DNA from: Eledone cirrhosa
Taxonomy: Eukaryota
DNA length: 64,000 bases
Assembly: GCA_964016885.1 (NCBI GenBank)
Contig: OZ024744.1
Span: forward strand, 116,188,001-116,252,000
Direction: 5' to 3'
How positions within the stretch are numbered: position 1 is the stretch's first letter; every line of letters begins with the position of its first letter. This document shows positions 40,701 through 64,000 of the stretch, in pieces. A program made the translations under genes and the position numbers. The notes beneath the pieces were generated by a model. It was not told the origin of the DNA. It searched no databases and saw only the letters and a program-made list of their open reading frames with translations.

Positions 40701-41761
40701 ACTCTTAGAACGGCTGTTACTTAAATATAAGTATGTACACGTACATACATTTATGATTTCAGACATACAGTATTATGTATATATATATATACATACATGC
40801 ACACATATATACATGTACGTATGGATTCACAGAATATTTATTATAATTGTCGGTGTGTTTGTAAACAAACATCCCGTATTAAGCCGTAGTGTCTAGCAAC
40901 CATCGTTGCTCGTTTGTTCAACACTGACAAAGGAACGCTGTACTAGTTTCAAGCTTATTAGCTATTGTCAGCAACGTATACCTTCCTGCCAGATTGTGGA
41001 ACGTAATTAATTACCTTATGCATATTAACGGGTGAGTAGCCCAATTTGCATATCGAGTGGGTTAATCGGCTGGATGCACCTAAATCGATATACGGAAAAA
41101 AATGAAACGAAATTTCATTTCCCACTCTTAGTACGGCTGTTACTGAAATATAAGTATGTACACGTACATACACATATGTACACAGACGTATAGTAGTGTG
41201 TATATATATATACATACATACATGCACACATATATACATGTACGTATGGATTCACCGAACATTTATTATAATGCTCGGTGTGTTTGTGAACAAACATCCG
41301 GTATTAAGCCGTAGTGTCTAGCAACCATCGTTGCTCGTTTGTTCAACACTGAAAAAGGAACGCTGTACTAGTTTCAAGCATATTAGCTATCGTCAGCAAC
41401 GTATACCTTCCTGCCAGATTGTTGAACGTATATACTTACCTTATGCATATTAACGGCTGAGTAGCCCAATTTGCATATCGAGTGGGTTAAACGGCCGGGT
41501 GCACCTAAAACGATAAACGGAGAAAAATGAAACGAAATTTCATTTCCCACTCTTAGTACGGCTGTTACTGAAATATAAGTATGTACACGTACATACACAT
41601 ATGTATACAGACGTACAATAGTATGTATACATATATACATACATTCACACATATATACATGTACGTATGGATTCACCAAACATTTATTATGATGCTCGGT
41701 GTGTTTGTAAACAAACATCCCGTATTAAGCCGTAGTGTCTTGCAGCCATTGTTGCTCGTTT

Positions 41762-41848
41762 GTTCAACACTGACAAAGGAACGCTGTACTAGTTTCAAGC
41801 TTATTAGCTATCGTCAGCAACGTATATCTTCCTGCCAGATTGTTGAAC
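41762..41848 (-). ncRNA. Type I hammerhead ribozyme (second representative copy)
   Basis: Same core and helices; the adjacent splice-bounded cassette 41861-41925 is intact. Confidence 0.78.
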
Positions 41849-44800
41849 GTATATACTTACCTTATGCATATTAACGGGTGAGTAGCCCAATTTGCATAAC
41901 GAGTGGGTTAATCGGCCGGGTGCACCTAAAACGATAAACGAAAAAAAATGAAACGAAATTTCATTTCCCACTCTTAGTACGGCTGTTACTTAAAAATAAG
42001 TATGTACACGTACATACACTTATGTTTTCAGACGTACAGTATTATGTATATATATATATACATACGTGCACACATATATACATGTACGTATGGATTCACA
42101 GAACATTTATTATAATGCTCGGTGTGTTTGTGAACAAACATCCCGTATTAAGCCGTAGTGTCTAGCAACCATCGTTGCTCGTTTGTTCAACACTGACAAA
42201 GGAACGCTGTACTAGTTTCATGCTTATTAGCTATCGTCAGCAACGTATACCTTCCTGCCAGATTGTTGAACGTATATACTTATGCATATTAACGGGTGAG
42301 TAGCCCAATTTGCATATCGAGTGGGTTAAACGGCCGGGTGCACCTAAAACGATAAACGGAGAAAAATGAAATGAAATTTCATTCCCCACTCTTAGTACGG
42401 CTGTTACTTAAATATAAGTATGTACACGTACATACACATATGTACACAGACGTACAGTATTATGTATATATATATACATACATGCACACATATATACATG
42501 TACGTATGGATTCACCCAACATTTATTATAATGCTCGGTGTGTTTGTAAAGAAACATCCCGTATGAAGCCGTAGTGTCTAGCAACCATCGTTGCTCGTTT
42601 GTTCAACACTGACAAAGAAACGCTGTACTAGTTTCAAGCTTATTAGCTATCGTCAGCAACTTATACCTTCCGGCCAGATTGTTGAACGTATACACTTACA
42701 TTATGCATATTAACGGGTGAGTAGCCCAATTTGATATCGAGTGGGTTAATCGGCCGGGTGCACCTAAAGCAATAAACGAAAAAAAAATGAAACGAAATTT
42801 CATTACGCACTCTTAGTACGGCTGTTACTTAAATATAAGTATGTACACGTACATACACATATGTATACAGTCGTACAGTAGTGTGTATATATATATACAT
42901 ACATGACACATATATACATGTACGTATAGATTCACCGAACATTTATTATAATGCTCGGTGTGTTTGTAAACAAACATCCCGTATTAAGCCGTATTGTCAA
43001 GCAACCATCGTTGCTCGTTTGTTCAACACTGACAAAGGAACGCTGTACTAGTTTCAAGCTTATTAGCTATCGTCAGCAACGTATACCTTCCTGCCAGATT
43101 GTTGAACGTTTATACTTACCTTATGCATATTAACGGGTGAGTAGCCCAATTTGTATATCGAGTGGGTTAATCGGCCGGATGCACCTAAATCGATAAACTG
43201 AAAAAAATGAAACGAAATTTCATTTCCCACTCTTAGTACGGCGTTTACTTAAATATAAGTACGTACACGTACATACACATATGTATGCAGTCGTAAAGTA
43301 GTGTGTATATATATATACATACATGCACACATATATACATGTACGTATAGATTCACCGAACATTTATTATAATGCTCGGTGTGTTTGTAAACAAACATGC
43401 CGTATTAAGCCGTAGTGTCTAGCAACCATCGTTGCTCGTTTGTTCAACACTGACAAAGGAATGCTGTACTAGTTTCAAGCTTATTAGCTATCGTCAGCAA
43501 CGTATACCTTCCTGGCAGATTGTTGAACGTATATACTTAACTTATGCATATTAATGGCTGAGTAGCCCAACTTGCATATCGAGTGCGTTAATCGGCCGGG
43601 TGCACCTAAAGCGATAAACGAAAAAAAAATGAAACGAAATTTCATTTCCCACTCTTAGTACGGCTGTTACTTAAATATAAGTATGTACACGTACATACAC
43701 ATATGTACACAGACGTACAGTATTATGTATATATATATACATACATGCACACATATATACATGTACGTATGGATTCACCGAACATTTATTATAATGCTCG
43801 GTGTGTTTGTAAACAAACATGCCGTATTAAGCCGTAGTGTCTAGCAACCATCGTTGCTCGTTTGTTCAACACTGACAAAGGAACGCTGTACTAGTTTCAA
43901 GCTTATTAGCTATCGTCAGCAACGTATACCTTCCTGGCAGATTGTTGAACGTATATACTTAACTTATGCATATTAATGGCTGAGTAGCCCAACTTGCATA
44001 TCGAGTGGGTTAATCGGCCGGGTGCACCGAAAACGATAAACGGAAAGAAATGAAACGAAATTTCATTTCCCTCTCTTAGTACGGCTGTTACTTAAATATA
44101 AGTATGTACACCTACATACACATATGTATACAGACGTACAGTAGTATGTATATATATATATACATACATACACACATATATACATGTACGTACGGATTCA
44201 CCGAACATTTATTATAATGCTCGGTGTGTTTATAAACAAACATCCCGTATTAATCCGTAGTGTCTAGCAACCATCGTTGCTCGTTTGTTCAACACTGACA
44301 AAGGAACGCTGTACTAGTTTCATGCTTATTAGCTATCGTCAGCAACGTATACCTTCCTGCCAGATTGTTGAACGTATATACTTATGCATATTAACGGGTG
44401 AGTAGCCCAACTTGCATATCGAGTGGGTTAATCGGCCGGGTGCACCTAAAACGATAAACGGAGAAAAATGAAACGAAATTTCATTTCCCACTCTTAGTAC
44501 GGCTGTTACTGAAATATAAGTATGTACACGTACATACACATATGTATACAGACGTACAATAGTATGTATACATATATACATACATTCACACATATATACA
44601 TGTACGTATGGATTCACCAAACATTTATTATGATGCTCGGTGTGTTTGTAAATAAACATCCCGTATTAAGCCGTAGTGTCTTGCAGCCATTGTTGCTCGT
44701 TTGTTCAACACTGACAAAGGAACGCTGTACTAGTTTCAAGCTTATTAGCTATCGTCAGCAACGTATATCTTCCTGCCAGATTGTTGAACGTATATACTTA

Positions 44801-46482
44801 CCTTATGCATATTAACGGGTGAGTAGCCCAATTTGCATAATGAGTGGGTTAATCGGCCGGGTGCACCTAAAGCGATAAACGAAAAAAAATGAAACAAAAT
44901 TTCATTTCCCACTCTTAGTACGGCTGTTACTTAAATATAAGTATGTACACGTACATACACATATGTACACAGACGTACAGTATTATGTATATATATATAC
45001 ATACATGCACACATATATACATGTACGTATGGATTCACCGAACATTTATTATAATGCTCGGTGTGTTTGTAAAGAAACATCCCGTATGAAGCCGTAGTGT
45101 CTAGCAACCATCGTTGCTCGTTTGTTCAACACTGACAAAGAAACGCTGTACTAGTTTCAAGCTTATTAGCTATCGTCAGCAACTTATACCTTCCGGCCAG
45201 ATTGTTGAACGTATACACTTACATTATGCATATTAACGGGTGAGTAGCCCAATTTGATATCGAGTGGGTTAATCGGCCGGGTGCACCTAAAGCAATAAAC
45301 GAAAAAAAAATGAAACGAAATTTCATTACGCACTCTTAGTACGGCTGTTACTTAAATATAAGTATGTACACGTACATACACATATGTATACAGTCGTACA
45401 GTAGTGTGTATATATATATACATACATGCACACATATATACATGTACGTATAGATTCACCGAACATTTATTATAATGCTCGGTGTGTTTGTAAACAAACA
45501 TCCCGTATTAAGCCGTATTGTCAAGCAACCATCGTTGCTCGTTTGTTCAACACTGACAAAGGAACGCTGAACTAGTTTCAAGCTTATTAGCTATCGTCAG
45601 CAACGTATACCTTCCTGCCAGATTGTTGAACGTTTATACTTACCTTATGCATATTAACGGGTGAGTAGCCCAATTTGTAAATCGATTGGGTTAATCGGCC
45701 GGATGCACCTAAATCGATAAACGGAAAAAAATGAAACGAAATTTCATTTCCCACTCTTAGTACGGCGTTTACTTAAATATAAGTACGTACACGTACATAC
45801 ACATATGTATACAGTCGTAAAGTAGTGTGTATATATATATACATACATGCACACATATATACATGTACGTATAGATTCACCGAACATTTATTATAATGCT
45901 CGGTGTGTTTGTAAACAAACATGCCGTATTAAGCCGTAGTGTCTAGCAACCATCGTTGCTCGTTTGTTCAACACTGACAAAGGAACGCTGTACTAGTTTC
46001 AAGCTTATTAGCTATCGTCAGCAACGTATACCATCCTGGCAGATTGTTGAACGTATATACTTAACTTATACATATTAATGGCTGAGTAGCCCAACTTGCA
46101 TATCGAGTGCGTTAATCGGCCGGGTGCACCTAAAGCGATAAACGAAAAAAAAATGAAACGAAATTTCATTTCCCACTCTTAGTACGGCTGTTACTTAAAT
46201 ATAAGTATGTACACGTACATACACATATGTACACAGACGTACAGTATTATGTATATATATATACATACATGCACACATATATACATGTACGTATGGATTC
46301 ACCGAACATTTATTATAATGCTCGGTGTGTTTGTAAACAAACATGCCGTATTAAGCCGTAGTGTCTAGCAACCATCGTTGCTCGTTTGTTCAACACTGAC
46401 AAAGGAACGCTGTACTAGTTTCAAGCTTATTAGCTATCGTCAGCAACGTATACCTTCCTGGCAGATTGTTGAACGTATATAC

Positions 46483-46650
46483 GAGGTTGGTGTTAGGAAG
46501 GGCATCCAGCTGTAGAAATCAAGCCAGATCAGTTCCTGTATGAGCAAGGCATGGTCAGCCGACCAGACACTGCCCACAACAGGACAACCCGTCTAACCCA
46601 TGCTAGCGTGGAAGAACGGACGTAAAACGGTGATGATGATGATGATGATG
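46483..46650 (+). mobile_element. 5'-truncated SINE/RTE-type retroposon 3' end with (TGA)n tail
   Basis: Interrupts a monomer; TSD atatac; ends aacccatgctagcgtggaagaacggacgtaaaacgg(tga)n. Confidence 0.8.
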
Positions 46651-49600
46651 ATATACTTAACTTATGCATATTAATGGCTGAGTAGCCCAACTTGCATATC
46701 GAGTGGGTTAATCGGCCGGGTGCACCTAAATCGATATACGGAAAAAATGAAAGGAAATTTCATTTCCCACTCTTAGTACGGCTGTTACTTAAATATAAGT
46801 ATGTACACGTACATACACATATGTATAAAGACGTACAGTAGTATGTATATATATACATACATGCACACATATATACATGTACGTATGGATTCACCAAACA
46901 TTTATTATGATGCTCGGTGTGTTTGTAAACAAACATCCCGTATTAAGCCGTAGTGTCTTGCAGCCATTGTTGCTCGTTTGTTCAACACTGACAAAGGAAC
47001 GCTGTACTAGTTTCAAGCTTATTAGCTATCGTCAGCAACGTATATCTTCCTGCCAGATTGTTGAACGTATATACTTACCTTATGCATATTAACGGGTGAG
47101 TAGCCCAATTTGCATAACGAGTGGGTTAATCGGCCGGGTGCACCTAAAACGATAAACGAAAAAAAATGAAACGAAATTTCATTTCCCACTCTTAGTACGG
47201 CTGTTACTTAAAAATAAGTATGTACACGTACATACACTTATGTTTTCAGACGTACAGTATTATGTATATATATATATACATACGTGCACACATATATACA
47301 TGTACGTATGGATTCACAGAACATTTATTATAATGCTCGGTGTGTTTGTGAACAAACATCCCGTATTAAGCCGTAGTGTCTAGCAACCATCGTTGCTCGT
47401 TTGTTCAACACTGACAAAGGAACGCTGTACTAGTTTCATGCTTATTAGCTATCGTCAGCAACGTATACCTTCCTGCCAGATTGTTGAACGTATATACTTA
47501 TGCATATTAACGGGTGAGTAGCCCAATTTGCATATCGAGTGGGTTAAACGGCCGGATGCACCTAAAACGATAAACGGAGAAAAATGAAATGAAATTTCAT
47601 TCCCCACTCTTAGTACGGCTGTTACTTAAATATAAGTATGTACACGTACATACACATATGTACACAGACGTACAGTATTATGTATATATATATACATACA
47701 TGCACACATATATACATGTACGTATGGATTCACCCAACATTTATTATAATGCTCGGTGTGTTTGTAAAGAAACATCCCGTATGAAGCCGTAGTGTCTAGC
47801 AACCATCGTTGCTCGTTTGTTCAACACTGACAAAGAAACGCTGTACTAGTTTCAAGCTTATTAGCTATCGTCAGCAACTTATACCTTCCGGCCAGATTGT
47901 TGAACGTATACACTTACATTATGCATATTAACGGGTGAGTAGCCCAATTTGATATCGAGTGGGTTAATCGGCCGGGTGCACCTAAAGCAATAAACGAAAA
48001 AAAAATGAAACGAAATTTCATTACGCACTCTTAGTACGGCTGTTACTTAAATATAAGTATGTACACGTACATACACATATGTATACAGTCGTACAGTAGT
48101 GTGTATATATATATACATACATGACACATATATACATGTACGTATAGATTCACCGAACATTTATTATAATGCTCGGTGTGTTTGTAAACAAACATCCCGT
48201 ATTAAGCCGTATTGTCAAGCAACCATCGTTGCTCGTTTGTTCAACACTGACAAAGGAACGCTGTACTAGTTTCAAGCTTATTAGCTATCGTCAGCAACGT
48301 ATACCTTCCTGCCAGATTGTTGAACGTTTATACTTACCTTATGCATATTAACGGGTGAGTAGCCCAATTTGTATATCGAGTGGGTTAATCGGCCGGATGC
48401 ACCTAAATCGATAAACTGAAAAAAATGAAACGAAATTTCATTTCCCACTCTTAGTACGGCGTTTACTTAAATATAAGTACGTACACGTACATACACATAT
48501 GTATGCAGTCGTAAAGTAGTGTGTATATATATATACATACATGCACACATATATACATGTACGTATAGATTCACCGAACATTTATTATAATGCTCGGTGT
48601 GTTTGTAAACAAACATGCCGTATTAAGCCGTAGTGTCTAGCAACCATCGTTGCTCGTTTGTTCAACACTGACAAAGGAATGCTGTACTAGTTTCAAGCTT
48701 ATTAGCTATCGTCAGCAACGTATACCTTCCTGGCAGATTGTTGAACGTATATACTTAACTTATGCATATTAATGGCTGAGTAGCCCAACTTGCATATCGA
48801 GTGCGTTAATCGGCCGGGTGCACCTAAAGCGATAAACGAAAAAAAAATGAAACGAAATTTCATTTCCCACTCTTAGTACGGCTGTTACTTAAATATAAGT
48901 ATGTACACGTACATACACATATGTACACAGACGTACAGTATTATGTATATATATATACATACATGCACACATATATACATGTACGTATGGATTCACCGAA
49001 CATTTATTATAATGCTCGGTGTGTTTGTAAACAAACATGCCGTATTAAGCCGTAGTGTCTAGCAACCATCGTTGCTCGTTTGTTCAACACTGACAAAGGA
49101 ACGCTGTACTAGTTTCAAGCTTATTAGCTATCGTCAGCAACGTATACCTTCCTGGCAGATTGTTGAACGTATATACTTAACTTATGCATATTAATGGCTG
49201 AGTAGCCCAACTTGCATATCGAGTGGGTTAATCGGCCGGGTGCACCGAAAACGATAAACGGAAAGAAATGAAACGAAATTTCATTTCCCTCTCTTAGTAC
49301 GGCTGTTACTTAAATATAAGTATGTACACCTACATACACATATGTATACAGACGTACAGTAGTATGTATATATATATATACATACATACACACATATATA
49401 CATGTACGTACGGATTCACCGAACATTTATTATAATGCTCGGTGTGTTTATAAACAAACATCCCGTATTAATCCGTAGTGTCTAGCAACCATCGTTGCTC
49501 GTTTGTTCAACACTGACAAAGGAACGCTGTACTAGTTTCATGCTTATTAGCTATCGTCAGCAACGTATACCTTCCTGCCAGATTGTTGAACGTATATACT

Positions 49601-51700
49601 TATGCATATTAACGGGTGAGTAGCCCAACTTGCATATCGAGTGGGTTAATCGGCCGGGTGCACCTAAAACGATAAACGGAGAAAAATGAAACGAAATTTC
49701 ATTTCCCACTCTTAGTACGGCTGTTACTGAAATATAAGTATGTACACGTACATACACATATGTATACAGACGTACAATAGTATGTATACATATATACATA
49801 CATTCACACATATATACATGTACGTATGGATTCACCAAACATTTATTATGATGCTCGGTGTGTTTGTAAATAAACATCCCGTATTAAGCCGTAGTGTCTT
49901 GCAGCCATTGTTGCTCGTTTGTTCAACACTGACAAAGGAACGCTGTACTAGTTTCAAGCTTATTAGCTATCGTCAGCAACGTATATCTTCCTGCCAGATT
50001 GTTGAACGTATATACTTACCTTATGCATATTAACGGGTGAGTAGCCCAATTTGCATAATGAGTGGGTTAATCGGCCGGGTGCACCTAAAGCGATAAACGA
50101 AAAAAAATGAAACAAAATTTCATTTCCCACTCTTAGTACGGCTGTTACTTAAATATAAGTATGTACACGTACATACACATATGTACACAGACGTACAGTA
50201 TTATGTATATATATATACATACATGCACACATATATACATGTACGTATGGATTCACCGAACATTTATTATAATGCTCGGTGTGTTTGTAAAGAAACATCC
50301 CGTATGAAGCCGTAGTGTCTAGCAACCATCGTTGCTCGTTTGTTCAACACTGACAAAGAAACGCTGTACTAGTTTCAAGCTTATTAGCTATCGTCAGCAA
50401 CTTATACCTTCCGGCCAGATTGTTGAACGTATACACTTACATTATGCATATTAACGGGTGAGTAGCCCAATTTGATATCGAGTGGGTTAATCGGCCGGGT
50501 GCACCTAAAGCAATAAACGAAAAAAAAATGAAACGAAATTTCATTACGCACTCTTAGTACGGCTGTTACTTAAATATAAGTATGTACACGTACATACACA
50601 TATGTATACAGTCGTACAGTAGTGTGTATATATATATACATACATGCACACATATATACATGTACGTATAGATTCACCGAACATTTATTATAATGCTCGG
50701 TGTGTTTGTAAACAAACATCCCGTATTAAGCCGTATTGTCAAGCAACCATCGTTGCTCGTTTGTTCAACACTGACAAAGGAACGCTGAACTAGTTTCAAG
50801 CTTATTAGCTATCGTCAGCAACGTATACCTTCCTGCCAGATTGTTGAACGTTTATACTTACCTTATGCATATTAACGGGTGAGTAGCCCAATTTGTAAAT
50901 CGATTGGGTTAATCGGCCGGATGCACCTAAATCGATAAACGGAAAAAAATGAAACGAAATTTCATTTCCCACTCTTAGTACGGCGTTTACTTAAATATAA
51001 GTACGTACACGTACATACACATATGTATACAGTCGTAAAGTAGTGTGTATATATATATACATACATGCACACATATATACATGTACGTATAGATTCACCG
51101 AACATTTATTATAATGCTCGGTGTGTTTGTAAACAAACATGCCGTATTAAGCCGTAGTGTCTAGCAACCATCGTTGCTCGTTTGTTCAACACTGACAAAG
51201 GAACGCTGTACTAGTTTCAAGCTTATTAGCTATCGTCAGCAACGTATACCATCCTGGCAGATTGTTGAACGTATATACTTAACTTATACATATTAATGGC
51301 TGAGTAGCCCAACTTGCATATCGAGTGCGTTAATCGGCCGGGTGCACCTAAAGCGATAAACGAAAAAAAAATGAAACGAAATTTCATTTCCCACTCTTAG
51401 TACGGCTGTTACTTAAATATAAGTATGTACACGTACATACACATATGTACACAGACGTACAGTATTATGTATATATATATACATACATGCACACATATAT
51501 ACATGTACGTATGGATTCACCGAACATTTATTATAATGCTCGGTGTGTTTGTAAACAAACATGCCGTATTAAGCCGTAGTGTCTAGCAACCATCGTTGCT
51601 CGTTTGTTCAACACTGACAAAGGAACGCTGTACTAGTTTCAAGCTTATTAGCTATCGTCAGCAACGTATACCTTCCTGGCAGATTGTTGAACGTATATAC

Positions 51701-51868
51701 GAGGTTGGTGTTAGGAAGGGCATCCAGCTGTAGAAATCAAGCCAGATCAGTTCCTGTATGAGCAAGGCATGGTCAGCCGACCAGACACTGCCCACAACAG
51801 GACAACCCGTCTAACCCATGCTAGCGTGGAAGAACGGACGTAAAACGGTGATGATGATGATGATGATG
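51701..51868 (+). mobile_element. Duplicate of the 46483-46650 insertion
   Basis: Same sequence and site, exactly 5218 bp downstream. Confidence 0.8.
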
Positions 51869-54800
51869 ATATACTTAACTTATGCATATTAATGGCTGAG
51901 TAGCCCAACTTGCATATCGAGTGGGTTAATCGGCCGGGTGCACCTAAATCGATATACGGAAAAAATGAAAGGAAATTTCATTTCCCACTCTTAGTACGGC
52001 TGTTACTTAAATATAAGTATGTACACGTACATACACATATGTATAAAGACGTACAGTAGTATGTATATATATACATACATGCACACATATATACATGTAC
52101 GTATGGATTCACCGAACATTTATTATAGTGCTCGGTGTGTTTGTAAACAAACATGCCGTATTAAGCCGTATTGTCTAGCAACCATCGTTGCTCGTTTGTT
52201 CAACACTGACAAAGGAACGCTGTACTAGTTTCAAGCTTATTAGCTATCGTCAGCAACGTATACCTTCCTGGCAGATTGTTGAACGTATATACTTAACTTA
52301 TACATATTAATGGCTGAGTAGCCCAACTTGCATATCGAGTGCGTTAATCGGCCGGGTGCACCTAAAGCGATAAACGAAAAAAAAATGAAACGAAATTTCA
52401 TTTCCCACTCTTAGTACGGCTGTTACTTAAATATAAGTATGTACACGTACATACACATATGTACACAGACGTACAGTATTATGTATATATATATACATAC
52501 ATGCACACATATATACATGTACGTATGGATTCACCGAACATTTATTATAATGCTCGGTGTGTTTGTAAACAAACATGCCGTATTAAGCCTTAGTGTCTAG
52601 CAACCATCGCTGCTCGTTTGTTTAACACTGACAAAGAACGATGTACTGGTTTTCAGCTTATTAGCTATCGTCAGCACCGTATACCTTCCTGCCAGATTGT
52701 GGAACGTATATACTTACCTTATGCATATTAACGGCTGAGTAGCCCAATCTGCATATCGAGTGGGTTAATCGGCCGGATGCACCTAAAATGATAAACGGAA
52801 AAAAATGAAACGAAATTTCATTTCCCACTCTTAGTACGGCTGTTACTTAAATATAAGTATGTACACGTACATACACATATGTATACAGAGGTACAGTAGT
52901 GTGTATATATATATACATACATGCACACATATATACATGTACGTATGGATTCACCGAACATTTATTATAATGCTCAGTGTGTTTGTAAGCCAATATCCAG
53001 TATTATGCCGTAGTGTCTAGCAACCATCTTTGCTCGTTTGTTCAACACTGACAAAGAAACGCTGTACTAGTTTTAAGCTTATTAACTATCGTCAGCAACG
53101 TATACCATCCTGCCAGATTGTTGAACGTATATACTTACCTTATGCATATTAACAGCTGAGTAGCCCAATTTGCATATCGAGTGGGTTAATCGGACGGGTG
53201 CACCTAACATCATAAATGGAAAAAAATGAAACGAAATTTCATTTCCCACTCTTAGTACGGCTGTTACTTAAATATAAGTATGTACACGTACATACACATA
53301 TGTATACAGACGTACAGTAGTACGTGTATATATATACATACATGCACACATATATACATGTACGTATGGATTCACCGAAGATTTATTATATTGCTCGGTG
53401 TGTTTGTAAACAAACATCCCGTATTAAGCCGCAGTGTCTAGCAACCATCGTTGCTCGTTTGTTCAACACTGACAAAGGAACGCTGTACTAGTTTCAAGCT
53501 TATTAGCTATCGTCAGCATCGTATACCTTCCTGCAAAATTGTTGAACGTATATACTTACCTTATGCATATTAACGGGTGAGTAGGCCAATTTGCATATCG
53601 AGTGGGTTAATCGGCCGGGTGCCCCTAAAACGATAAACGAAAAAAAATGAAACGAAATTTCATTTCCCACTCTTAGAACGGCTGTTACTTAAATATAAGT
53701 ATGTACACGTACATACACTTATGATTTCAGACATACAGTATTATGTATATATATATATACATACATGCACACATATATACATGTACGTATGGATTCACAG
53801 AATATTTATTATAACTGTCGGTGTGTTTGTAAACAAACATCCCGTAATCAAGCCGTAGTGTCTAGCAACCATCGCTGTTCGGTTGTTTAACACTGACAAA
53901 GGAACGCTGTACTAGTTTCAAGCTTATTAGCTATCGTTAGCAACGTATACCTTCCTGCCAGATTGTTGAACGTATATACTTACCTTATGTATATTAACGG
54001 CTGAGTAGTCCAATTTGCATATCGAGTGGGTTAATCGGCCGGGTGCACCTAAAACGATAAACGAAAAAAAATGAAACGAAATTTCATTTCCCACTCTTAG
54101 TACCGCTGATACTTAAATATAAGTATGTACACGTACATACACATATGTATACAGACGTAGAGTAGTGTGTATATATATATACATACATGCACACATATAT
54201 ACATGTACGTATGGATTCACCGAACATTTATTATAATGCTCGGTGTGTTTGTAAACTATCATCCCGTATTAAGCCGTAGTGTCTAGCAACCATCGCTGCT
54301 CGTTTGCTCAACACTGACAAAGGAACGCTGTACTAGTTTCAAGCTTATTAGCTATCGTCAGCAACGTTTACCTTCCTGCCAGATTGTTGAACATATATAC
54401 TTACCTTATGCATATTAACAACTGAGTAGCCCAATTTGCATATCGAGTGGGTTAATCGGCCGGGTGCACCTAAGATCATAAACGGAAAAAAATGAAACGA
54501 AAAACATTTCCCACTCTTAGTACGGCTGTTACTTAAATATAAGTATGTACACGTACATACACATATGTATACAGACGTACAGTAGTATGTATATATATAT
54601 ACATACATGCACACATATATACATGTACGTATGGATTCACCGAAGCTTTATTATAATGCTCGGTGTGTTTGTAAACAAACATGCCGTATTAAGCCGTAGT
54701 GTCTAGCAACCATCGTTGCTGGTTTGTTCAACACTGACAAAGGAACGCTGTACTAGTTTCAAGCTTATTAGCTATCGTCAGCAACGTTTACCTTCCTGCC

Positions 54801-55496
54801 AGATTGTTGAACATATATACTTACCTTATGCATATTAACGGCTGAGTAGCTCAATTTGCATATCGAGTGGGTTAATCGGCCGGGTGCACCGAAAACGATA
54901 AAATGAAAAAATGAAACGAAATTTCATTTCCCACTCTTAGTACGGCTGTTACTCAATTATAGGTATGTACACGTACATACACATATGTATACAGACGTAC
55001 AGCATTATGTATATATATATATATATACATACATGCACACGTATATACATGTACGTATGGATTCACCGAACATTTATTATAATGCTCGGTGTGTTTGTAA
55101 ACACATATCCCGTATTAAGCCGTAGTGTCTAGCAACCATCGCTGTTCGTTTGTTCAACACTGACAAAGGAACGCTGTACTAGTTTCAAGCTTATTAGCTA
55201 TCGTCAGCAACGTATACCTTCCTGCCAAATTGTTGAACGTATATACTTACCTTATGCATATTATCGGCTGAGTAGCCCAATTTGCATATCGAGTGGGTTA
55301 ATCGGCCGGGTGCACCGAAAACGATAAACGGAAAAAATGAAACGGAATTTCATTCCCCACTCTTAGTACGGCTGTTACTTAAATATAAGTATGTATACGT
55401 ACATACACATATGTATACTGATGTACAGTATTATGTATATATATATATATACATTATGAGAGTAAAACAAAGAATCCTTTAATACATCAAAAGTTT

Positions 55497-55546
55497 TTAT
55501 TAGCAGACAATGTTTCGTCCTATTAAGGACTCATCAGGGCAATCAA
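55497..55546 (-). ncRNA. Minimal type I hammerhead in the downstream pLTR (stem I mismatch)
   Basis: TTGATTGCC CTGATGA GTCC TTAATA GGAC GAAAC ATT GTC TGCTAATAA. Confidence 0.8.
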
Positions 55547-57198
55547 AACAACAAGAGGTAATATTGGCAGATACAAGCCAGAAACTCTGAAGAATATGGA
55601 GTGTACATACACTAATGTCTTACAAAAATATATGATAATAAAAATGAAAATAAAGATAAAAATAATAAAATTATATAATAAGAATAACTAAGGATGTAGA
55701 TAACATTAAGAACCATATTACAAATATAGTCCAAAGCAACTACCTAAATCTAAACAAATTTGGTTATATAGAGCAGGAATTATATATAACACAATATAAT
55801 ACATTATAATAATAATATACTTTTACCAACATTAAAATTCCAAATTAAAAATCAAAAGGTACAATATATACATGTATATATGTGCGCGCGCACACACACA
55901 CACACATATAACAACCCACACATCTATGTTCGACTACACAAAAATTAAGCCCTATTAGAAGTTTGAATATTAAAAATAAGCATGGTAAGAGTGAAAATAA
56001 TACTAATACATCTACCCAATATACATGAGGCAATAATATGATATAATTACAAGAAACACATATAACAAATAATAAACAACAAAATTATATAATTCAATAT
56101 AATATAATAATAAAATAGATAGATAATCCCCGGTTAATTTACAGAAACAATATAGATGTCACAATAAAATACAATGATAAAACGTTAACAGTGTATTAAC
56201 ATATATCATAAACAATATATACAAATTGATTCATACTGGGTTACAGAATAAATGAGGAAATATAAATTATATAATACTAAAAAAAACTATAATGGTACAG
56301 GGGAAAATTATGATGTTCCAGAAAAAAATATGATGCTACAGAAAAAAAATATATACAGACATCTAACATGATATGTAAAGTCTAAATATCATAATGTTAC
56401 ATATTACAATATTACAAAAATCCAGACATCTTACATGATATATAAAGTTTAAATATCATAATGTTACATATAATGAACAGTAAGTAATAAGGATCAATAA
56501 TACATATAATATAATATAATATATTATAAAATTGGCATAAAATAAATACTTATAATTACAAGGTTAGTAGACAGACATATGTGGATGAGTGAGCGAAGCC
56601 AGACAGTGAATAGTAAATAGAATATAGAATAAAACAAATAAATACAATCAACCGGAAATTACAAAACAAAAGCAAATGTATACACATTTAGGCCTCGCGT
56701 GCATTTAAGAAATTAGGTAAACACTAAGGAAAGCAATCACTTTAATTGACTCCAAACCCTATTTGATAAATTAATATTAAAAATATCGAACCCGTCCAAT
56801 AAGGTAGTATAATATTAGCTGTAGTTTAAGTCATTAAAGTATATAAACTTTAATGTATCGTTACAAATGTTTACAAAAAGGAATAAAATTATACTATCAT
56901 ATACGCAACGATATCTAAAAAACTGACTTAAGTAGAATTAAGGTAGGCTAATGGGGACAGAATTGACGAAATATATGGAGGGTGCGAAGTGGCATAAAAT
57001 ATATTCGATATACTATAATAAATAACAGAACGGAGCATAAAAGAGGCGGGGGTTAAATATAATCATATTCAATCTGGAGGGGTTGACAATAAGTTTATGT
57101 GCGCATGGGGGGGGGGAGGGGGGTTGTCGATAGATAAATCAGAATAGACTTAGAAATAAAAATAGAATTAAAAATAAAATTAAAATTAAAGTTAATAA

Positions 57199-57233
<35 letters not shown>

Positions 57234-57437
57234 TATAAAGATAATAGAATAACGTAAGTGGCGTAAAGTGTGTAATCTTATGTATACTAACAAGGTGTAA
57301 TAGTGAAGACATAGATATGGTACAGTAGCCAAATGATTATGAGAGCTAGAATGAAGAGTCATCAAAAACCAATGGTAACATTAATGTTGGCAAACCAAAA
57401 GAACCCAAACAAAAAACTAAGTAATGGAATATATCTG

Positions 57438-60131
57438 CTAATGGGTACAATTTGTACTACTAGAACATTTGGGTTTATAATAAAAATAAGAATTAGAAAT
57501 GGCATGGGGGCAAGAAGAGAATATCTCAGACTTTCTATTCAGTAAGGGTACGCTAGAGAAAATAATAGAGTGTGTCTCAAGTATACAGAGATTACAAAAC
57601 TTACTATGTGCAGAAAGGTGGTTAGATCGTGCTACTAAACCCCAGTTAAGGCTATATGGTATATAAGCTCCCTTAAGATCCCAGATATAATGCGCTAAAG
57701 AGGTAGAATTCTTAAACCTAACATGTTTGAAGTTAGAGATATGAGAGTTAAACCTAGTCTTAAAAGTGTTTGAAGTAGATCCTATATACGTTCTTTTAGA
57801 GGAATTAGTTATAACCTCGCAAGCGTAGACAATGTTCTTAGAAAGGCAGTTACCGTTTAGAGGGCAGTTAGCACTCACTCTACAATTGCACTTCCGGGTG
57901 TTATTGGTTGGCTCGAGTGGTGATGTATTACACGTAGGACCTCTATTAGATAAGGACTGTTCTGGTGGTAAAGCATTGTCCGATCCATTCAGACTAGTAG
58001 TATGTAGAGAGGAGAATCCATCCCTAATTTTCCTATTATTAGTGCTAGCTAAATGAGAACTAATATTAGGGGTGGTAGAGAATGAGAGTTTAATAACATT
58101 TTTATTAAAAATACCAAGGTATTTGTGAGAAGGGGGGAAATTTTTCTCTAAGATAGTGAAGAAAGACCTAGGGATATTAGTTGATACATCCTGATTATAT
58201 GGCGGGTTGAAATAAGTATTTAATCGCCTTCTATTTTTATTTTTATTCTTATCGACCCTACCTCTATCAAAAGTCCCACCGTCGAGACTAGGGTTACTAT
58301 CGGGAATAGTTGAAGCCACATTCATAGAATCAGCCATAATTTCGTTATGCCTATTATAGTTTCTACCTCCAGTAGATCCGCTGTTGTCCGGAATCCCTAC
58401 AAGAGGATTAAGGCCAATGATAGGAGCAGTAGGAGCAACATTATTAGAATAAGATCTAGCCAAACCAACACCAATGCGTGAGCGCACAAGGGGCTCGACT
58501 TGTCTCCTAGAGGTATTATATTTGCTATTACGAGTCAGGTGGGATAACTTATGGGTGGGTTCAGATACTCCTATATAAGTTCTACGGTTACTATGTTTGC
58601 TACTCCCATTCATGGCCATGTTATGTGATATAATGTTATTATTATTAAGAGTAAGCGGAGACTTTCTAAGGTTACTATTATTATAATTTATTTTACTAGA
58701 GTGACCTGAATTTGCTAGGGCATTATTGTAGTACTCCGCATGTTCATTAAAAGTTCCTATGTCCTTAGATAGTGTGGAAATCCTATTAGAAACGCCCTTA
58801 ATTATAGAGTTTATCATAGACTTAGGGTGGTTAGAGTTGGGGCTAACATAAGAAAGAATTTTATTAGGCTTATGGAAGGGTTTAAAATTATTAGTGGCCA
58901 AGTCCAAAGTCACATCTAAAAAGTTAACCGCTCTATCATTTCTATCTATCGTGATTGAAAGGTTGTAGCTTTTAAAAAACCTATAAAGCTTCTTCTTATT
59001 ATGTTCTACATTGTTGGTGCTAGAGTTAATTACAAACAATGCATCATCACGATATAGTCCGCCTATAAGGTGCGGGAAGGTAGCGTATAGTTCATTAAGG
59101 AGGAACAACCCAACAAGATCAGTAACCTGGGCCGAATCACTCGAACCCATTGTAACGTCGAAATTATTGGGCGTGTTTTTACGGGTCCAAAATATGTCCT
59201 CAAATTTAATAATAGTTTTACGGGCTGCTAGTATAATATCTACCTGCGGTCGTGTAAGGCTGGACACTCTCATGGCCATCATTAAGGCTTTATTGAGGAG
59301 GATGGGTGAAATTGATGTGTAGTAGGCATCAATATCGAATTGGATAAACTTATTAGATTCAAGTCTATTAATCCCAGAGAACCAATCTATAACTTCCCTA
59401 GTGTTCCCCCATAGGTTAAAATTAACCTTATCCCTAACATCTGGTATAATAAGGTCAAGGATTTTTTTACTGATAATGGCTATATCCGACTTAGAAGGAC
59501 AGATAAGTCTAACTGAGGGGTTACTAATAAAATCAACCTTATGGTCCTTAAGTGTGAATCTCGGTTCTCGAGGGTAATATGGCTGGGTATACTTATCGAG
59601 TCCGAGGTCAGAGACTATTCTAAGGCCCTCACTGTTGATGTGGTTCAAATTCTCAAGCGTAGTTTTTTTATAGTTTCTATATAACTCTTTATAAATAAAA
59701 TCGCGGTATGTACTATAGTCCATGGAGTATAGATTCTTAGTCTTATCTGCCGGGACCAGAATGGACTTATTCTCACCGAAACCCTTAACAATATTTTAAA
59801 GTCTGGACTGGAATTTATCAAAATTACTATTGTTTCAATGTCTATTATTTGGCCTAAGCCTAACATTTTTGACCAGAGAGAGTAAGTCACCTTCGAAACT
59901 ATCTAATAGTATGTTGTGTGGTGGGCTCTTATAAGTTTTGAAGCCGTAGTTATTAAAATTTGTTCTATTCCTGGGGTCCTTCCTATTCTTATTATTATCG
60001 TAGTGGAACGCACGCCATCTAATACTTTTTACAAATGAGTTAACACTAGCTATCAGTAGTTTTTGGTAAGTATTCTTAGAGGGGGTGGGAATATTTTTCA
60101 GAGATAAAGGCAAGTAACTCTTTGTTAGCAT
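57438..60131 (-). pseudogene. Penelope-like reverse transcriptase plus C-terminal GIY-YIG endonuclease, two in-frame stops
   Basis: ORFs 59835-60131 and 57438-59723 share a frame (TGA 59835-37, TAA 59796-98). Motifs: LKNIP, RWRA, PADKT, LKDHK, FDIDAYY, VTMGS, LYRDD, FLDV, HKP, SNHP, FNPPY, CNCR..CPLNGNC, IVY..YIG..F..R..H, CNLC..E, LLN..SE. Confidence 0.92.
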
Positions 60132-60351
60132 ACTGTCAGATAAAAATATATAGAGGCCAAAATACCAGTATATATGTGAGTAAGCTCAACCTGTCGGGAG
60201 CAGTTACAAGGATTAGAATACTGGAGCGTGTTTGAGTCAAACACCCTCTTCGTATTATAGAAATGACAGTAAAGGTATAGCTCAATGCAGTTAAACAGAG
60301 CCAAAAAATTAAGAGAGTAAAACAAAGAATCCTTTAATACATCAAAAGTTT

Positions 60352-60401
60352 TTATTAGCCGACAATGTTTCGTCCTATTAAGGACTCATCAGGGCAATCA
60401 A
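60352..60401 (-). ncRNA. Minimal type I hammerhead in the upstream pLTR (intact)
   Basis: TTGATTGCC CTGATGA GTCC TTAATA GGAC GAAAC ATT GTC GGCTAATAA: canonical core, GUC triplet, stem I GCC/GGC. Confidence 0.88.
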
Positions 60402-61998
60402 AACAACAAGAGGTAATATCGGCAGATACAAGCCAGAAACTCTGAAGAATATGGAGTGTACATACACTAATGTCTTACAAAAATATATGATAATAAAAAT
60501 GAAAATAAAGATAAAAATAATAAAAATATATAATAAGAATAACTAAGGATGTAGATAACATTAAGAACCATATTACAAATATAGTCCAAAGCAACCAACC
60601 TAAATCTAAACAAATTTGGTTATATAGAGCAGGAATTATATATAACACAATATAATACATTATAATAATAATATACTTTTACCAACATTAAAATTCCAAA
60701 TTAAAAATCAAAAGGTACAATATATACATGTATATATGTGCGCGCACACACACACACACACACACACATATAACAACCCACACATCTATGTTCGACTACA
60801 CAAAAATTAAGCCCTATTAGAAGTTTGAATATTAAAAATAAGCATGGTAAGAGTGAAAATAATACTAATACATCTACCCAATATACATGAGGCAATAATA
60901 TGATATAATTACAAGAAACACACATAACAAATAATAAACAACAAAATTATATAATTCAATATAATATAATAATAAAATAGATAGGTAATCCCCGGTTAAT
61001 TTACAGAAACAATATAGATGTCACAATAAAATACAATGATAAAACGTTAACAGTGTATTAACATATATCATAAACAATATATACAAATTGATTCATACTG
61101 GGTTACAGAATAAATGAGGAAATATAAATTATATAATACTCAAAAAAACTATAATGGTACAGGGAAAAATTATGATGTTCCAGAAAAAAATATGATGCTA
61201 CAGAAAAAAATATATACAGACATCTAACATGATATGTAAAGTCTAAATATCATAATGTTACATATTACAATATTACAAAAATCCAGACATCTTACATGAT
61301 ATATAAAGTTTAAATATCATAATGTTACATATAATGAACAGTAAGTAATAAGGATCAATAATACATATAATATAATATAATATATTATAAAATTGGCATA
61401 AAATAAATACTTATAATTACAAGGTTAGTAGACAGACATATGTGGATGAGTGAGCGAAGCCAGACAGTGAATAGTAAATAGAATATAGAATAAAACAAAT
61501 AAATACAATCAACCGGAAATTACAAATCCACAAACATCCACATATGTCTGTAGTAAGAGTTGCCTCCCCTGCCACGACAATCGAATCGCTGTTCTCTAGA
61601 CAGGAAGTAGGTGGAGTTGCTTCCCTTTGGGATTGACCAAACTCCCTAGTGGTCACTTCCGGTCAACAGAGATAAAAGGAGCGATTAACCGCGAAATCTC
61701 TCTCTCGCCTCCTGATTCCTGAAGTGGTAACATCTTCGACCATAGCTGGTGATTCTTTCTGGACGACCCTTTCGTTACCAGCACAATGCAGCTCACCAGC
61801 CTGAGATGAGAGCGCCAAGATATTTCTACCAACTTCACAATGGTATTATTGCCATCGGGTAACAACCCTTTACATTATACACCTTTGACTTCTATGAAGT
61901 AAAACTTTATCACACACACCAGTACTCTTTGTCTTTTATATTATGTTGCATGTGCACCGATATCTATTTCCTAAAGTGGTGACCCCGACGTGATGAAC

Positions 61999-62030
61999 GG
62001 CTGCGTGTTCGTATCACGTTAAGGTTACCA
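61999..62030 (+). other. 3' 32 nt of mature tRNA-Trp including CCA (the extended PBS of the inverted LTR)
   Basis: GGCTGCGTGTTCGTATCACGTTAAGGTTACCA versus recalled tRNA-Trp GGCTGCGTGTTCGAATCACGTCGGGGTCACCA. Confidence 0.75.
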
Positions 62031-62031
62031 A

Positions 62032-62397
62032 TATAGCGAGGATACTGGATTGTATGGATGTAACAAAACGAGACATGGTTTGTATGTATAATATTTAATT
62101 AACGGTAGATAGTATACTTGACATGTCAAAGATAGATGTTAGAATGAAACAAAGTTAGTAGTTACCGTTTTGATTGCCAGGCAAACGCGGCTGGCAGAGG
62201 ACGCCTGGCTAAGGCCAGGCGCCTGTTGGCCAAATTAATGGCAGAGCCAAATGTGAGGCTCTTGACCAGGTGCCGAAAAGGCAATGAGAGAAAGGAAGCT
62301 TAAAGTTGTTAGTTTTATAGGGCTCTGACCGGAAGTCGCAGAAAGGGTTCCACCTCCCGTCTAGATCCCAATCAAAACAAGGGAGACAACCGCTACA
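62032..62397 (-). mobile_element. Inverted related LTR inside the TRIM, with its own PPT/3'UTR (62398-~62485)
   Basis: Minus strand reads AAAATTCTGGCGGGAGGTTA|TGTAGCGG...CCTCGCTATA|T TGGTAACC; shares TCTAGAC and ACTTCCGGTCA..ATAAAA with the outer LTR. Confidence 0.75.
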
Positions 62398-63560
62398 TAA
62401 CCTCCCGCCAGAATTTTAGTGTATAAAAATCGAAATGAAAATATGTAGCAAGTTGGCGAGAATGTTGTAACAGGCATGAAAATTACGACAAAAGAATGTT
62501 CGGAAAAATCAATGATAGATATCAAGGTAGCCAACCGCTCTTGGCCAGCAACAGCAATACAGCAGCAGCAGCAACAGCAACAGCAATACAGCAACTCAGC
62601 TTCACCAACAACCAAAGCCAGAGAATTAATTTTTGCAGCACTCTTCCTGTGAGAAAATCCATTTGGATGTTGGAAATTTCACGATATACCACATAACAGA
62701 AACCACCTGCATTCATTCTCTGGAACACACTTTCTTTCCTGCTGTCATGTGATTGCACACCTGTGAACTATATTTTGTACATTTGAACTTTTGACTTTTC
62801 TTACTTCCATTACTCTGTACCATATTTTTCATGCCTCTTACATGCTCGCCATCTTACTCCATGCATGCTTCTTTCGATTTTTTATGTTTTAAAAATCTGG
62901 CGGGGGATACTGTAGTAAGAGTTGCCTCCCCTGCCACGACAATCGAATCGCTGTTCTCTAGACAGGAAGTAGGTGGAGTTGCTTCCCTTTGGGATTGACC
63001 AAACTCCCTAGTGGTCACTTCCGGTCAACAGAGATAAAAGGAGCGATTAACCGCGAAATCTCTCTCTCGCCTCCTGATTCCTGAAGTGGTAACATCTTCG
63101 ACCATAGCTGGTGATTCTTTCTGGACGATCCTTTCGTTACCAGCACAATGCAGCTCACCAGCCTGAGATGAGAGCGCCAAGATATTTCTACCAACTTCAC
63201 AATGGTATTATTGCCATCGGGTAACAACCCTTTACATTATACACCTTTGACTTCTATGAAGTAAAACTTTATCACACACACCAGTACTCTTTGTCTTTTA
63301 TATTATGTTGCATGTGCACCGATATCTATTTCCTAAATGTCTGTCTACTAACCTTGTAATTATAAGTATTTATATATTTTATAATATATTATATTATATT
63401 ATATGTATTATTGATCCTTATTACTTACTGTTCATTATATGTAACATTATGATATTTAAACTTTATATATCATGTAAGATGTCTGGATTTTTGTAATATT
63501 GTAATATGTAACATTATGATATTTAGACTTTACATATCATGTTAGATGTCTGTATATATA

Positions 63561-64000
63561 TGTCAGCAACGTATACCTTCCTGCCAGATTGTTGATCGTA
63601 TATACTTACCTTATGCATATTAACGGGTGAGTAGCCCAATTTGCATAGCGAGTGTGTTAATCGGTCGGGTGCACCGTAAAAGATAAACGGAAAAAAAGGA
63701 AACAAAATTTCATTTCCCACTCTTAGTAAGGCTGTTACTTAAATATAAGTATGTACACGTACATACACATATGTATACAGACGTACGGTTGTATGTATAT
63801 ATATATACATACATGCACACATATATACATGTACGTATGGATTCACCGAACATTTATTATAATACTCGGTGTGTTTGTAAACACACATCCCGTATTAAGC
63901 CGTAGTGTCTAGCAATCATCGTTGCTGGTTTGTTCAACACTGACAAAGGAACGCTGTACTAGTTTCAAGCTTATTAGCTATCTTCAGCAACGTATACCTT
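63561..64000 (-). repeat. ~422-bp hammerhead satellite resumes
   Basis: Same monomer as 33316-55457, running to the window edge. Confidence 0.93.

What the first reader, a model, noticed from the sequence alone, without database searches (positions are those of the whole stretch)
61977..62030. Head-to-head PBS pair, one running 32 nt into tRNA-Trp with an A58>T change
Seen: the outer PBS (61977-61994) is followed 4 nt later by GGCTGCGTGTTCGTATCACGTTAAGGTTACCA, the T-arm, acceptor strand and CCA of tRNA-Trp. The two can fold into a hairpin. T-loop position 58 (62012) is T rather than A. Known: plus-strand synthesis normally stops at m1A58 after 18 nt, and RT read-through of m1A often gives A>T. 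Inference: a fossil of primer read-through that was captured and then transposed inside a young element with near-identical LTRs and an intact TSD. The fold-back could block tRNA priming or act as a cis-encoded primer.
Basis: partly seen in the sequence, partly recalled or inferred. Interest (0 to 1): 0.72.

Follow-up and report, generated by a model that had tools for sequence, protein, structure and literature searches.

The report
Back-to-front retrotransposon chimera, overlong primer site
This jumping gene is a splice of two related retrotransposons joined back to front at their primer sites, and the longer site carries 14 extra letters of host tRNA shared by over 500 copies, likely left when the copying enzyme once ran past its normal stop and misread a modified base.

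Summary
The sequence is as described, but it is not one element folding back on its primer. The outer 18-nt site belongs to a coding CsRn1-type Ty3/gypsy family (A). The 32-nt arm is the primer site of a second, non-coding family (B), lying inverted with its own LTR (62032-62397). B carries this 32-nt site in 532 exact matches; 7 lack T58, all with C, none with A. Two B copies keep the tell-tale duplication of LTR end plus PBS behind the tRNA copy, so read-through happened once in B's ancestor and was amplified. Among 23 separate captures, 8 differ at position 58, against 2 of 81 host tRNA-Trp copies; those two have T58, so B's own T is probably, not certainly, a misread m1A. The head-to-head joint recurs at the same nucleotide at 10 loci with different partners and breakpoints; the window's structure is single-copy. 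Likely cause: plus-strand strong-stop DNA mis-priming on B's leader. No evidence for self-priming. tRNA read-through inserts are known from defective HIV proviruses; fixation and amplification were not found in my searches. The scan earlier noted stacked primer sites elsewhere in this genome.

The parts
61545..61548 (.). left target-site duplication TGTC
61549..61975 (+). 5' LTR of family A (427 bp, TGT...AAA)
   Evidence: 99% to the LTR of a 6.1-kb coding copy; one difference from the 3' LTR
61977..61994 (+). outer primer-binding site, exact 18-nt complement of tRNA-Trp; last 3 nt (61992-61994) are shared with family B's leader
61995..61998 (-). 4 nt of family B's leader (start of the duplicated LTR end)
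   Evidence: present in native B copies
61999..62012 (-). family B's 14-nt PBS extension, a copy of tRNA-Trp positions 45-58, with T at position 58 (62012)
62013..62030 (-). family B's 18-nt primer-binding site, four differences from the host tRNA
   Evidence: this variant occurs in native B copies
62032..62397 (-). complete LTR of family B (366 bp, TGT...ATA), inverted
   Evidence: 97.5% to a native B copy; B copies have paired LTRs and 4-bp duplications
62398..62548 (-). family B purine tract and 151 nt of its 3' interior, inverted; 62546-62548 (CAG) shared with family A
   Evidence: 98% to B positions 1576-1726
62549..62910 (+). 3' interior and purine tract of family A
   Evidence: 97-98% to coding A copies from position 5313 on
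62911..63337 (+). 3' LTR of family A
63338..63341 (.). right target-site duplication TGTC

Best explanation
The 1.8-kb element is a chimera of family-A LTRs around an inverted piece of family B, likely made in one reverse-transcription round when A's plus-strand strong-stop DNA primed on B's leader, and the 32-nt arm is B's fixed primer site, likely left by an older read-through of tRNA-Trp that misread m1A58. Step 1 (inferred, old): in B's ancestor plus-strand synthesis copied the primer to position 45, put A opposite position 58, then re-annealed at the LTR end, duplicating about 13 nt of LTR end plus the start of the PBS; B then spread to hundreds of sites (shown). Step 2 (shown by folding only): the duplicated stretch is partly complementary to any tRNA-Trp PBS, 5 pairs at the PBS 3' end and 7 at its near-palindromic 5' end. 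Step 3 (inferred, recent): in a particle holding A and B RNA, DNA made of LTR-A plus 18 nt of primer copy annealed there, copied B's PBS and LTR, made B's first strand transfer into U3 and the purine tract, and returned to A's minus strand at a 3-nt microhomology; integrase inserted the product with a 4-bp duplication. The hairpin is a by-product; the element is probably a one-off.
For: Anatomy: window = A 1-447, B 406->1 and 1726->1576 inverted, A 5313->end, with 3-nt overlaps at both joints. B site: 532 exact matches; non-T58 in 7, all C. Intact duplication behind the tRNA copy in L181 and L192. The same layout (32 nt, 12-nt spacer, second partial PBS) stands before gag-pol in two metagenome contigs, L268 and L274. 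Position 58: not A in 8 of 23 separate captures versus 2 of 81 host gene-like copies (Fisher p 6e-5) and versus 5 of 289 letters at unconstrained positions below 50 (p 2.5e-7); 3 of 11 metagenome hits are also not A. Joint: 14 matches at 10 loci, outer LTR from A (4 loci), B or B-like (4) or a third family (2), each with its own inner breakpoints; 7 of 10 are bounded by a 4-bp duplication. The outer arm is always 18 nt; a search leaving its first 11 letters free gave 12 matches, 11 exact tRNA complements and one with a single change, whereas only 9 of the first 100 B genomic sites are exact. The leader is the best pairing site for the PBS 18-mer in all of B (-16.3 versus -13.6 kcal/mol next; best of 28 ATC sites). 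A and B pieces are mixed in L102, L103, L120, L165. In L111 six A>G changes lie on the B arm only, not on the opposite arm or in the 3' LTR, as expected if an edited RNA was the template (one locus).
Against: No intermediate was observed; steps 1 and 3 rest on anatomy. Two of 81 host copies have T58, so a gene source or a plain mutation for B's T cannot be excluded; m1A58 was not measured in this host. Most captures (15 of 23) have A58. For m1A followed by A, PMC4787781 reports low C signal, yet 2 of the 8 changes are C. The 23 captures were called separate by their different downstream letters; most have no second LTR within 4 kb, 45 of the 70 listed T58 rows and 24 unlisted rows were not opened. 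A purine tract-LTR-PBS order also occurs in L103, so a tandem B DNA template is possible. A switch of the growing B minus strand onto a tRNA-primed strand would give the same joint and cannot be told apart. L106 and L108 have no determined ends and L109's flanks match at 3 of 4 letters.
Confidence: 0.66

Rival explanations
1. Same chimera, but B's T58 is an ordinary point mutation in B's ancestor or was copied from a host tRNA-Trp variant with U58 (concerns the base only).
For: 2 of 81 host gene-like copies have T58 and ARAGORN calls both tRNA-Trp; B's 18-nt site has gathered other changes; one fixed event cannot be typed by itself.
Against: One host copy has A57, the other A49; the arm has G57 and G49. 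The 14-nt extension has no other difference from the tRNA. C58 and G58 captures have no host counterpart among 81 copies, and position 58 is the one hot position across captures.
Confidence: 0.25
2. The joint arose in the chromosome: a tandem B inserted or recombined backwards into an A copy and two deletions trimmed it.
For: Both joints have 3-nt microhomology; tandem purine tract-LTR-PBS order exists (L103); B is abundant.
Against: Neither end of the B piece is an LTR terminus and no inner duplication flanks it; the joint falls at the same nucleotide at 10 loci with three kinds of partner; outer arms are exact primer copies even behind B LTRs; the outer LTRs differ at one letter, leaving little time.
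Confidence: 0.12
3. One reading: read-through and fold-back inside this element created the pair, which then transposed as a family.
For: Stable hairpin; intact LTRs and duplication; true fold-back captures exist elsewhere (L174/L265, L114/L263).
Against: The arm continues into a whole second LTR of another family; it has B's variant letters, not the primer's; the inner breakpoint is single-copy.
Confidence: 0.04
4. The hairpin is functional: the inner arm, cut after CCA, primes minus-strand synthesis without tRNA.
For: Geometry allows it: the arm's CCA pairs with the start of the PBS.
Against: No head-to-head structure has a sibling among the 10 loci; tRNA 18-mer:PBS pairing (-36.3 kcal/mol) is stronger than arm:arm (-22.1); native B lacks the perfect arm yet has hundreds of copies.
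Confidence: 0.04

Closest known systems
CsRn1 clade of Ty3/gypsy LTR retrotransposons (PMC2582038; passages and section 6 read)
   Same: tRNA-Trp PBS, 4-bp duplication, LTR ends TGT...AAA or TGT...ATA, Gag CX2HX9CX3C in family A.
   Different: The text read describes a short PBS only; no 32-nt site, duplicated leader or head-to-head joint (its alignment figure, Additional file 1, is an image I did not see).
Delayed second-strand transfer with tRNA-Lys3 inserts in HIV-1 proviruses (PMC12657518; passages and section 11 read)
   Same: Integrated DNA with primer tRNA copied past position 58; 44 sequences, inserts of 7-54 nt, 5 of 44 changed at position 58.
   Different: All were defective somatic proviruses with deletions. 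Here the insert is germline, followed by a duplication that kept the element mobile, and amplified to more than 500 copies.
Primer over-extension sequence of lentiviruses and spumaviruses (PMC13191261; passages and section 10 read; PMC8599865 introduction and passages)
   Same: Genomic complementarity to the primer just past the 18-nt PBS.
   Different: There it reaches only the stops at positions 54-55 and aids transfer; here it runs to position 45 and no such role is shown.
RT signature of m1A (PMC4787781; abstract and section 27 read)
   Same: Arrest plus misincorporation at m1A58, dependent on the 3' neighbour.
   Different: In vitro library signature; here read from integrated genomic copies.
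Recombination between co-packaged autonomous and non-autonomous LTR elements (PMC6894440; passages read)
   Same: Mosaic progeny from two RNAs in one particle.
   Different: Passages read describe same-sense mosaics, not an antisense piece joined exactly at the PBS end.

Membership tests
CsRn1 clade (family A, donor of the window's LTRs) | PBS complementary to tRNA-Trp | tested here: met
CsRn1 clade (family A, donor of the window's LTRs) | 4-bp target-site duplication | tested here: met
   window and 3 of 4 A copies checked
CsRn1 clade (family A, donor of the window's LTRs) | Gag CHCC signature CX2HX9CX3C | tested here: met
   present near the end of the first frame of L147
CsRn1 clade (family A, donor of the window's LTRs) | Gypsy-order Pol (RT, RNase H, integrase) | tested here: met
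   Pfam RVT_1, RT_RNaseH, Integrase_H2C2, rve in that order
CsRn1 clade (family A, donor of the window's LTRs) | LTR ends TGT...AAA or TGT...ATA | tested here: met
   A: TGT...AAA, B: TGT...ATA
CsRn1 clade (family A, donor of the window's LTRs) | RT phylogeny groups with CsRn1 | not tested
   no reference RT sequences were fetched
Non-autonomous LTR retrotransposon (family B) | paired LTRs, PBS, purine tract, target duplication | tested here: met
   LTR pairs in L151-L164; 4-bp duplication in 11 of 13 copies checked
Non-autonomous LTR retrotransposon (family B) | no gag-pol coding | tested here: met
   no tblastn hit of A's Gag or Pol in L151's element; longest stop-free stretch 171 aa (one copy)
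Primer over-extension sequence (works-like only) | genomic complementarity to primer beyond 18 nt | tested here: met
   14 nt in B and in coding family D
Primer over-extension sequence (works-like only) | over-extended plus strands are used in normal transfer | tested here: not met
   if so, base 58 would be re-sampled; no B match has A58 or G58, although 19 of the first 100 have the tRNA-type letter at PBS position 5; indirect
Tf1-type self-priming elements (definition recalled) | PBS pairs with the RNA's own 5' end and matches no tRNA | tested here: not met
   PBS is an exact tRNA-Trp complement and the pairing arm lies downstream
Autointegration or nested insertion product | an LTR terminus at the joint, with a target duplication | tested here: not met
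   joints lie at B positions 406 and 1576, inside leader and interior

The most novel reading that the evidence does not exclude
CsRn1-type reverse transcriptases regularly run through m1A58, and animal genomes keep the products as a readable in-vivo record of the primer's modifications (mixed bases at 58; ends grouped at positions 44-46, 35-41 and 27-29). At least three lineages (B, D and a metagenome element) fixed a 32-nt site ending at G45, and in B the duplication left by that event forms a built-in trap that catches the strong-stop DNA of co-packaged elements and turns it into head-to-head chimeras.
Probability: 0.4. Interest if true: 0.68.

Novelty: new variant of a known kind. Interest (0 to 1): 0.5.

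Why it matters
Read-through of the primer tRNA is treated as a dead end: PMC8599865 states it prevents completion of the plus strand, and the HIV cases in PMC12657518 are all defective. Here such a product was rescued by a short duplication and became one of hundreds of copies, and the same layout appears in another organism's element. The set of captures gives an in-vivo readout of stops and misreading on a native tRNA by a retrotransposon enzyme, which tRNA sequencing can check directly. The recurring joint shows a defined route by which LTR elements gain antisense pieces and long hairpins. The window's copy itself is probably an inert one-off.

Tried and rejected
ARAGORN found no tRNA gene in the window; Rfam at E up to 1 listed no tRNA match in 55000-64000. 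The tRNA family search of the genome scored 63 of 552,091 candidates and gave no tRNA-Trp among 14 hits opened. A pattern for the tRNA-Trp 3' end gave 12 hits that were PBS extensions, not genes. A 5-bp duplication (ATGTC) was considered and dropped because A's 3' LTRs all end in one more A. The base-57/58 tally printed used a wrong index and was redone; the Fisher test against 1 of 61 is replaced by 2 of 81. No RNA holder listed. Contigs of two other organisms cover LTR parts only and say nothing on the joint; RAD reads of another sample show T at 62012 and B's native leader but do not cover the joint. Viral contigs: 0 matches to the 32-nt pattern. A second joint type through the 7-bp match occurs once (L112). 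Ten literature searches found no report of a fixed 32-nt tRNA-copy PBS or of this joint; the library lacks most subscription papers, including older retroviral work on read-through. Two Ty1 papers on non-inheritance of the primer sequence were not held, so that point is recalled only. PMC6088434, PMC7197481 and 10.1101/2025.05.12.650695 were seen as passages only; the last mentions a conserved PBS mismatch at the m1A position in MusD.

Full report
Observation. 61977-61994 is the exact complement of the last 18 nt of a host tRNA-Trp; after GAAC, 61999-62030 matches tRNA positions 45-76 at 27 of 32 letters, with T for A at 62012 (position 58) and four more differences at positions 66, 67, 68 and 72. 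The stretch folds at -30.3 kcal/mol, z -4.18, better than all 200 shuffles. It sits in a 1,789-bp element with LTRs that differ at one letter and a 4-bp duplication TGTC. The host is a 3.0-Gb genome, G000.

Two families. A search with the joint gave 1,797 candidates, most matching only from 61992 on. These are family B: 2.1-kb elements with 366-bp LTRs, 4-bp duplications in 11 of 13 copies checked and no Gag or Pol match in the copy tested. Read on the minus strand, the window holds B's LTR (62397-62032), then B's PBS and extension. The outer LTRs belong to family A, whose 6-kb copies carry Gag with CX2HX9CX3C and Pol with RT, RNase H and integrase, the marks of the CsRn1 clade in PMC2582038 (section 6 and passages read). 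Native A copies have an 18-nt PBS and no extension (11 of 30 loci show the native leader). The window is A 1-447, then B 406 to 1 and B 1726 to 1576 inverted, then A 5313 to the end, with 3-nt overlaps at both joints. The inner joint occurs once in the genome.

The 32-nt site. It is a family trait of B: 532 exact matches to a 35-letter pattern. With a near-identical pattern, 7 matches lack T58, all with C, none with A. In L181 and L192 the LTR end, AG and the first 11-12 letters of the PBS stand both before and after the tRNA copy. This is what read-through followed by re-annealing at the LTR end would leave (inference). In most B copies the second PBS has decayed. A coding family D has a fixed 32-nt site with A58, and two of 11 metagenome hits show 32 nt, a 12-nt spacer and a second partial PBS before gag-pol.

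Is T58 a misread m1A? A 30-letter pattern gave 65 tRNA-Trp-like matches; four of those opened are CCA-bearing captures behind LTR-like ends. In the two gene clusters plus five single loci, 79 of 81 gene-like copies have A58 and 2 have T58, one with A57, one with A49; the arm has G57 and G49. CCA-bearing extensions: 124 matches, 100 listed (A 25, T 70, C 3, G 2). I opened all 30 rows with A, C or G and 25 of the 70 with T (24 were B). Merging B and D each to one event and adding two captures gives 23 events: A 15, T 4, C 2, G 2. Non-A at 58 is 8 of 23, against 2 of 81 genes (p 6e-5) and 5 of 289 letters at positions below 50 (p 2.5e-7). Ends fall at positions 44-46 (5), 35-41 (13) and 27-29 (5); the last two groups lie near positions 37 and 26, which I recall as commonly methylated. 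Metagenome hits: A 8, G 2, C 1. So misreading at 58 is well supported for the set and likely, not proven, for B. Against: most captures have A; C is not the expected product for m1A followed by A (PMC4787781, section 27); most captures have no second LTR within 4 kb, so they were not all shown to be whole elements.

The head-to-head joint. The same joint occurs 14 times at 10 loci. The outer LTR is from A at 4 loci, B or B-like at 4, a third family at 2. Inner breakpoints differ at each locus, and 7 of 10 units have their own 4-bp duplication. The outer arm always ends at letter 18. With its first 11 letters left free, 12 matches came back, 11 exact and one with a single change, while only 9 of the first 100 B genomic sites are exact; three B-LTR loci all exact would have a chance near 0.0007 by my own arithmetic, with the caveat that one is a diverged subfamily. 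[quoted passage not shown] B's duplicated leader is the best site on B for that DNA end to pair (-16.3 kcal/mol, next -13.6, RNA parameters). One locus uses the other half of that site. A single B LTR with PBS on one side and purine tract on the other, as in the window, is what copying B RNA through its first strand transfer would give (inference). In L111 six A>G changes are confined to the B arm, which fits an RNA template.

Function of the hairpin. None is shown. Each structure is single, but with 10 loci among hundreds of B copies that is expected whether or not the hairpin blocks priming. tRNA pairing (-36.3) exceeds arm pairing (-22.1). A role of the extension in normal strand transfer is not supported: base 58 is not re-sampled in B.

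Known and new. tRNA inserts of 7-54 nt, 5 of 44 changed at position 58, are known from defective HIV-1 proviruses (PMC12657518, section 11 and passages). Short complementarity past the PBS is known in lentiviruses (PMC13191261). Mosaics of co-packaged elements are known (PMC6894440, passages). Ten searches found no fixed, amplified 32-nt site and no such joint; older subscription papers are not covered, and the PBS figure in the supplement of PMC2582038 was not seen.

Verdict. Real feature, partly right first reading. New variant of a known kind; interest 0.5. The window's copy is a likely one-off; the value lies in the family-level record.

Noticed in passing
window 55456-63559: Penelope-like element: 785-aa minus-strand frame 57438-59795 with a weak GIY-YIG hit, direct repeats each with a type I hammerhead match below the Rfam cut-off (55499-55543, 60354-60398), and an inverted partial repeat into which the LTR chimera inserted.
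   Followed up: partly
window 40002-55457 and 63560-64000: Tandem array of about 421-bp units with a higher-order period.
   Followed up: no
family B genome-wide: 81 of the first 100 listed PBS keep A at position 5, and the commonest form matches none of 81 host tRNA-Trp copies, so the primer sequence is seldom inherited; similar to what I recall for Ty1.
   Followed up: partly
L046, L047, L049, L051, L052, L055: Family D: gag-pol-bearing elements with a fixed 32-nt PBS, A58, from the T47 isodecoder.
   Followed up: partly
L268:1501-1532, L274:254-285: Metagenome contigs with a coding CsRn1-like element: 32-nt PBS, 12-nt spacer, second partial PBS, and a decayed extended PBS 67 nt upstream.
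   Followed up: partly
L111:3945-4012: Six A>G changes in about 40 nt of one arm, like RNA editing; B's 7 C58 copies may have the same cause.
   Followed up: partly
L114:216-340: A different head-to-head pair: two tRNA extensions of 38 and 50 nt joined in the anticodon arm, both T58.
   Followed up: partly
L177, L180, L025: Tandem 46-nt repeats of B's LTR end plus 32-nt PBS.
   Followed up: no
window 62548; L103, L110, L112: Inner breakpoints cluster at B positions 1558-1594, about 150 nt before the purine tract.
   Followed up: no
G000:C4:353.39-353.49 Mb and 277.40-277.45 Mb: Two tandem clusters with 68 ARAGORN tRNA-Trp calls.
   Followed up: partly
L174:1501-1549: A 49-nt capture with a change at position 37 as well as 58, followed by a fold-back onto its own LTR end.
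   Followed up: partly
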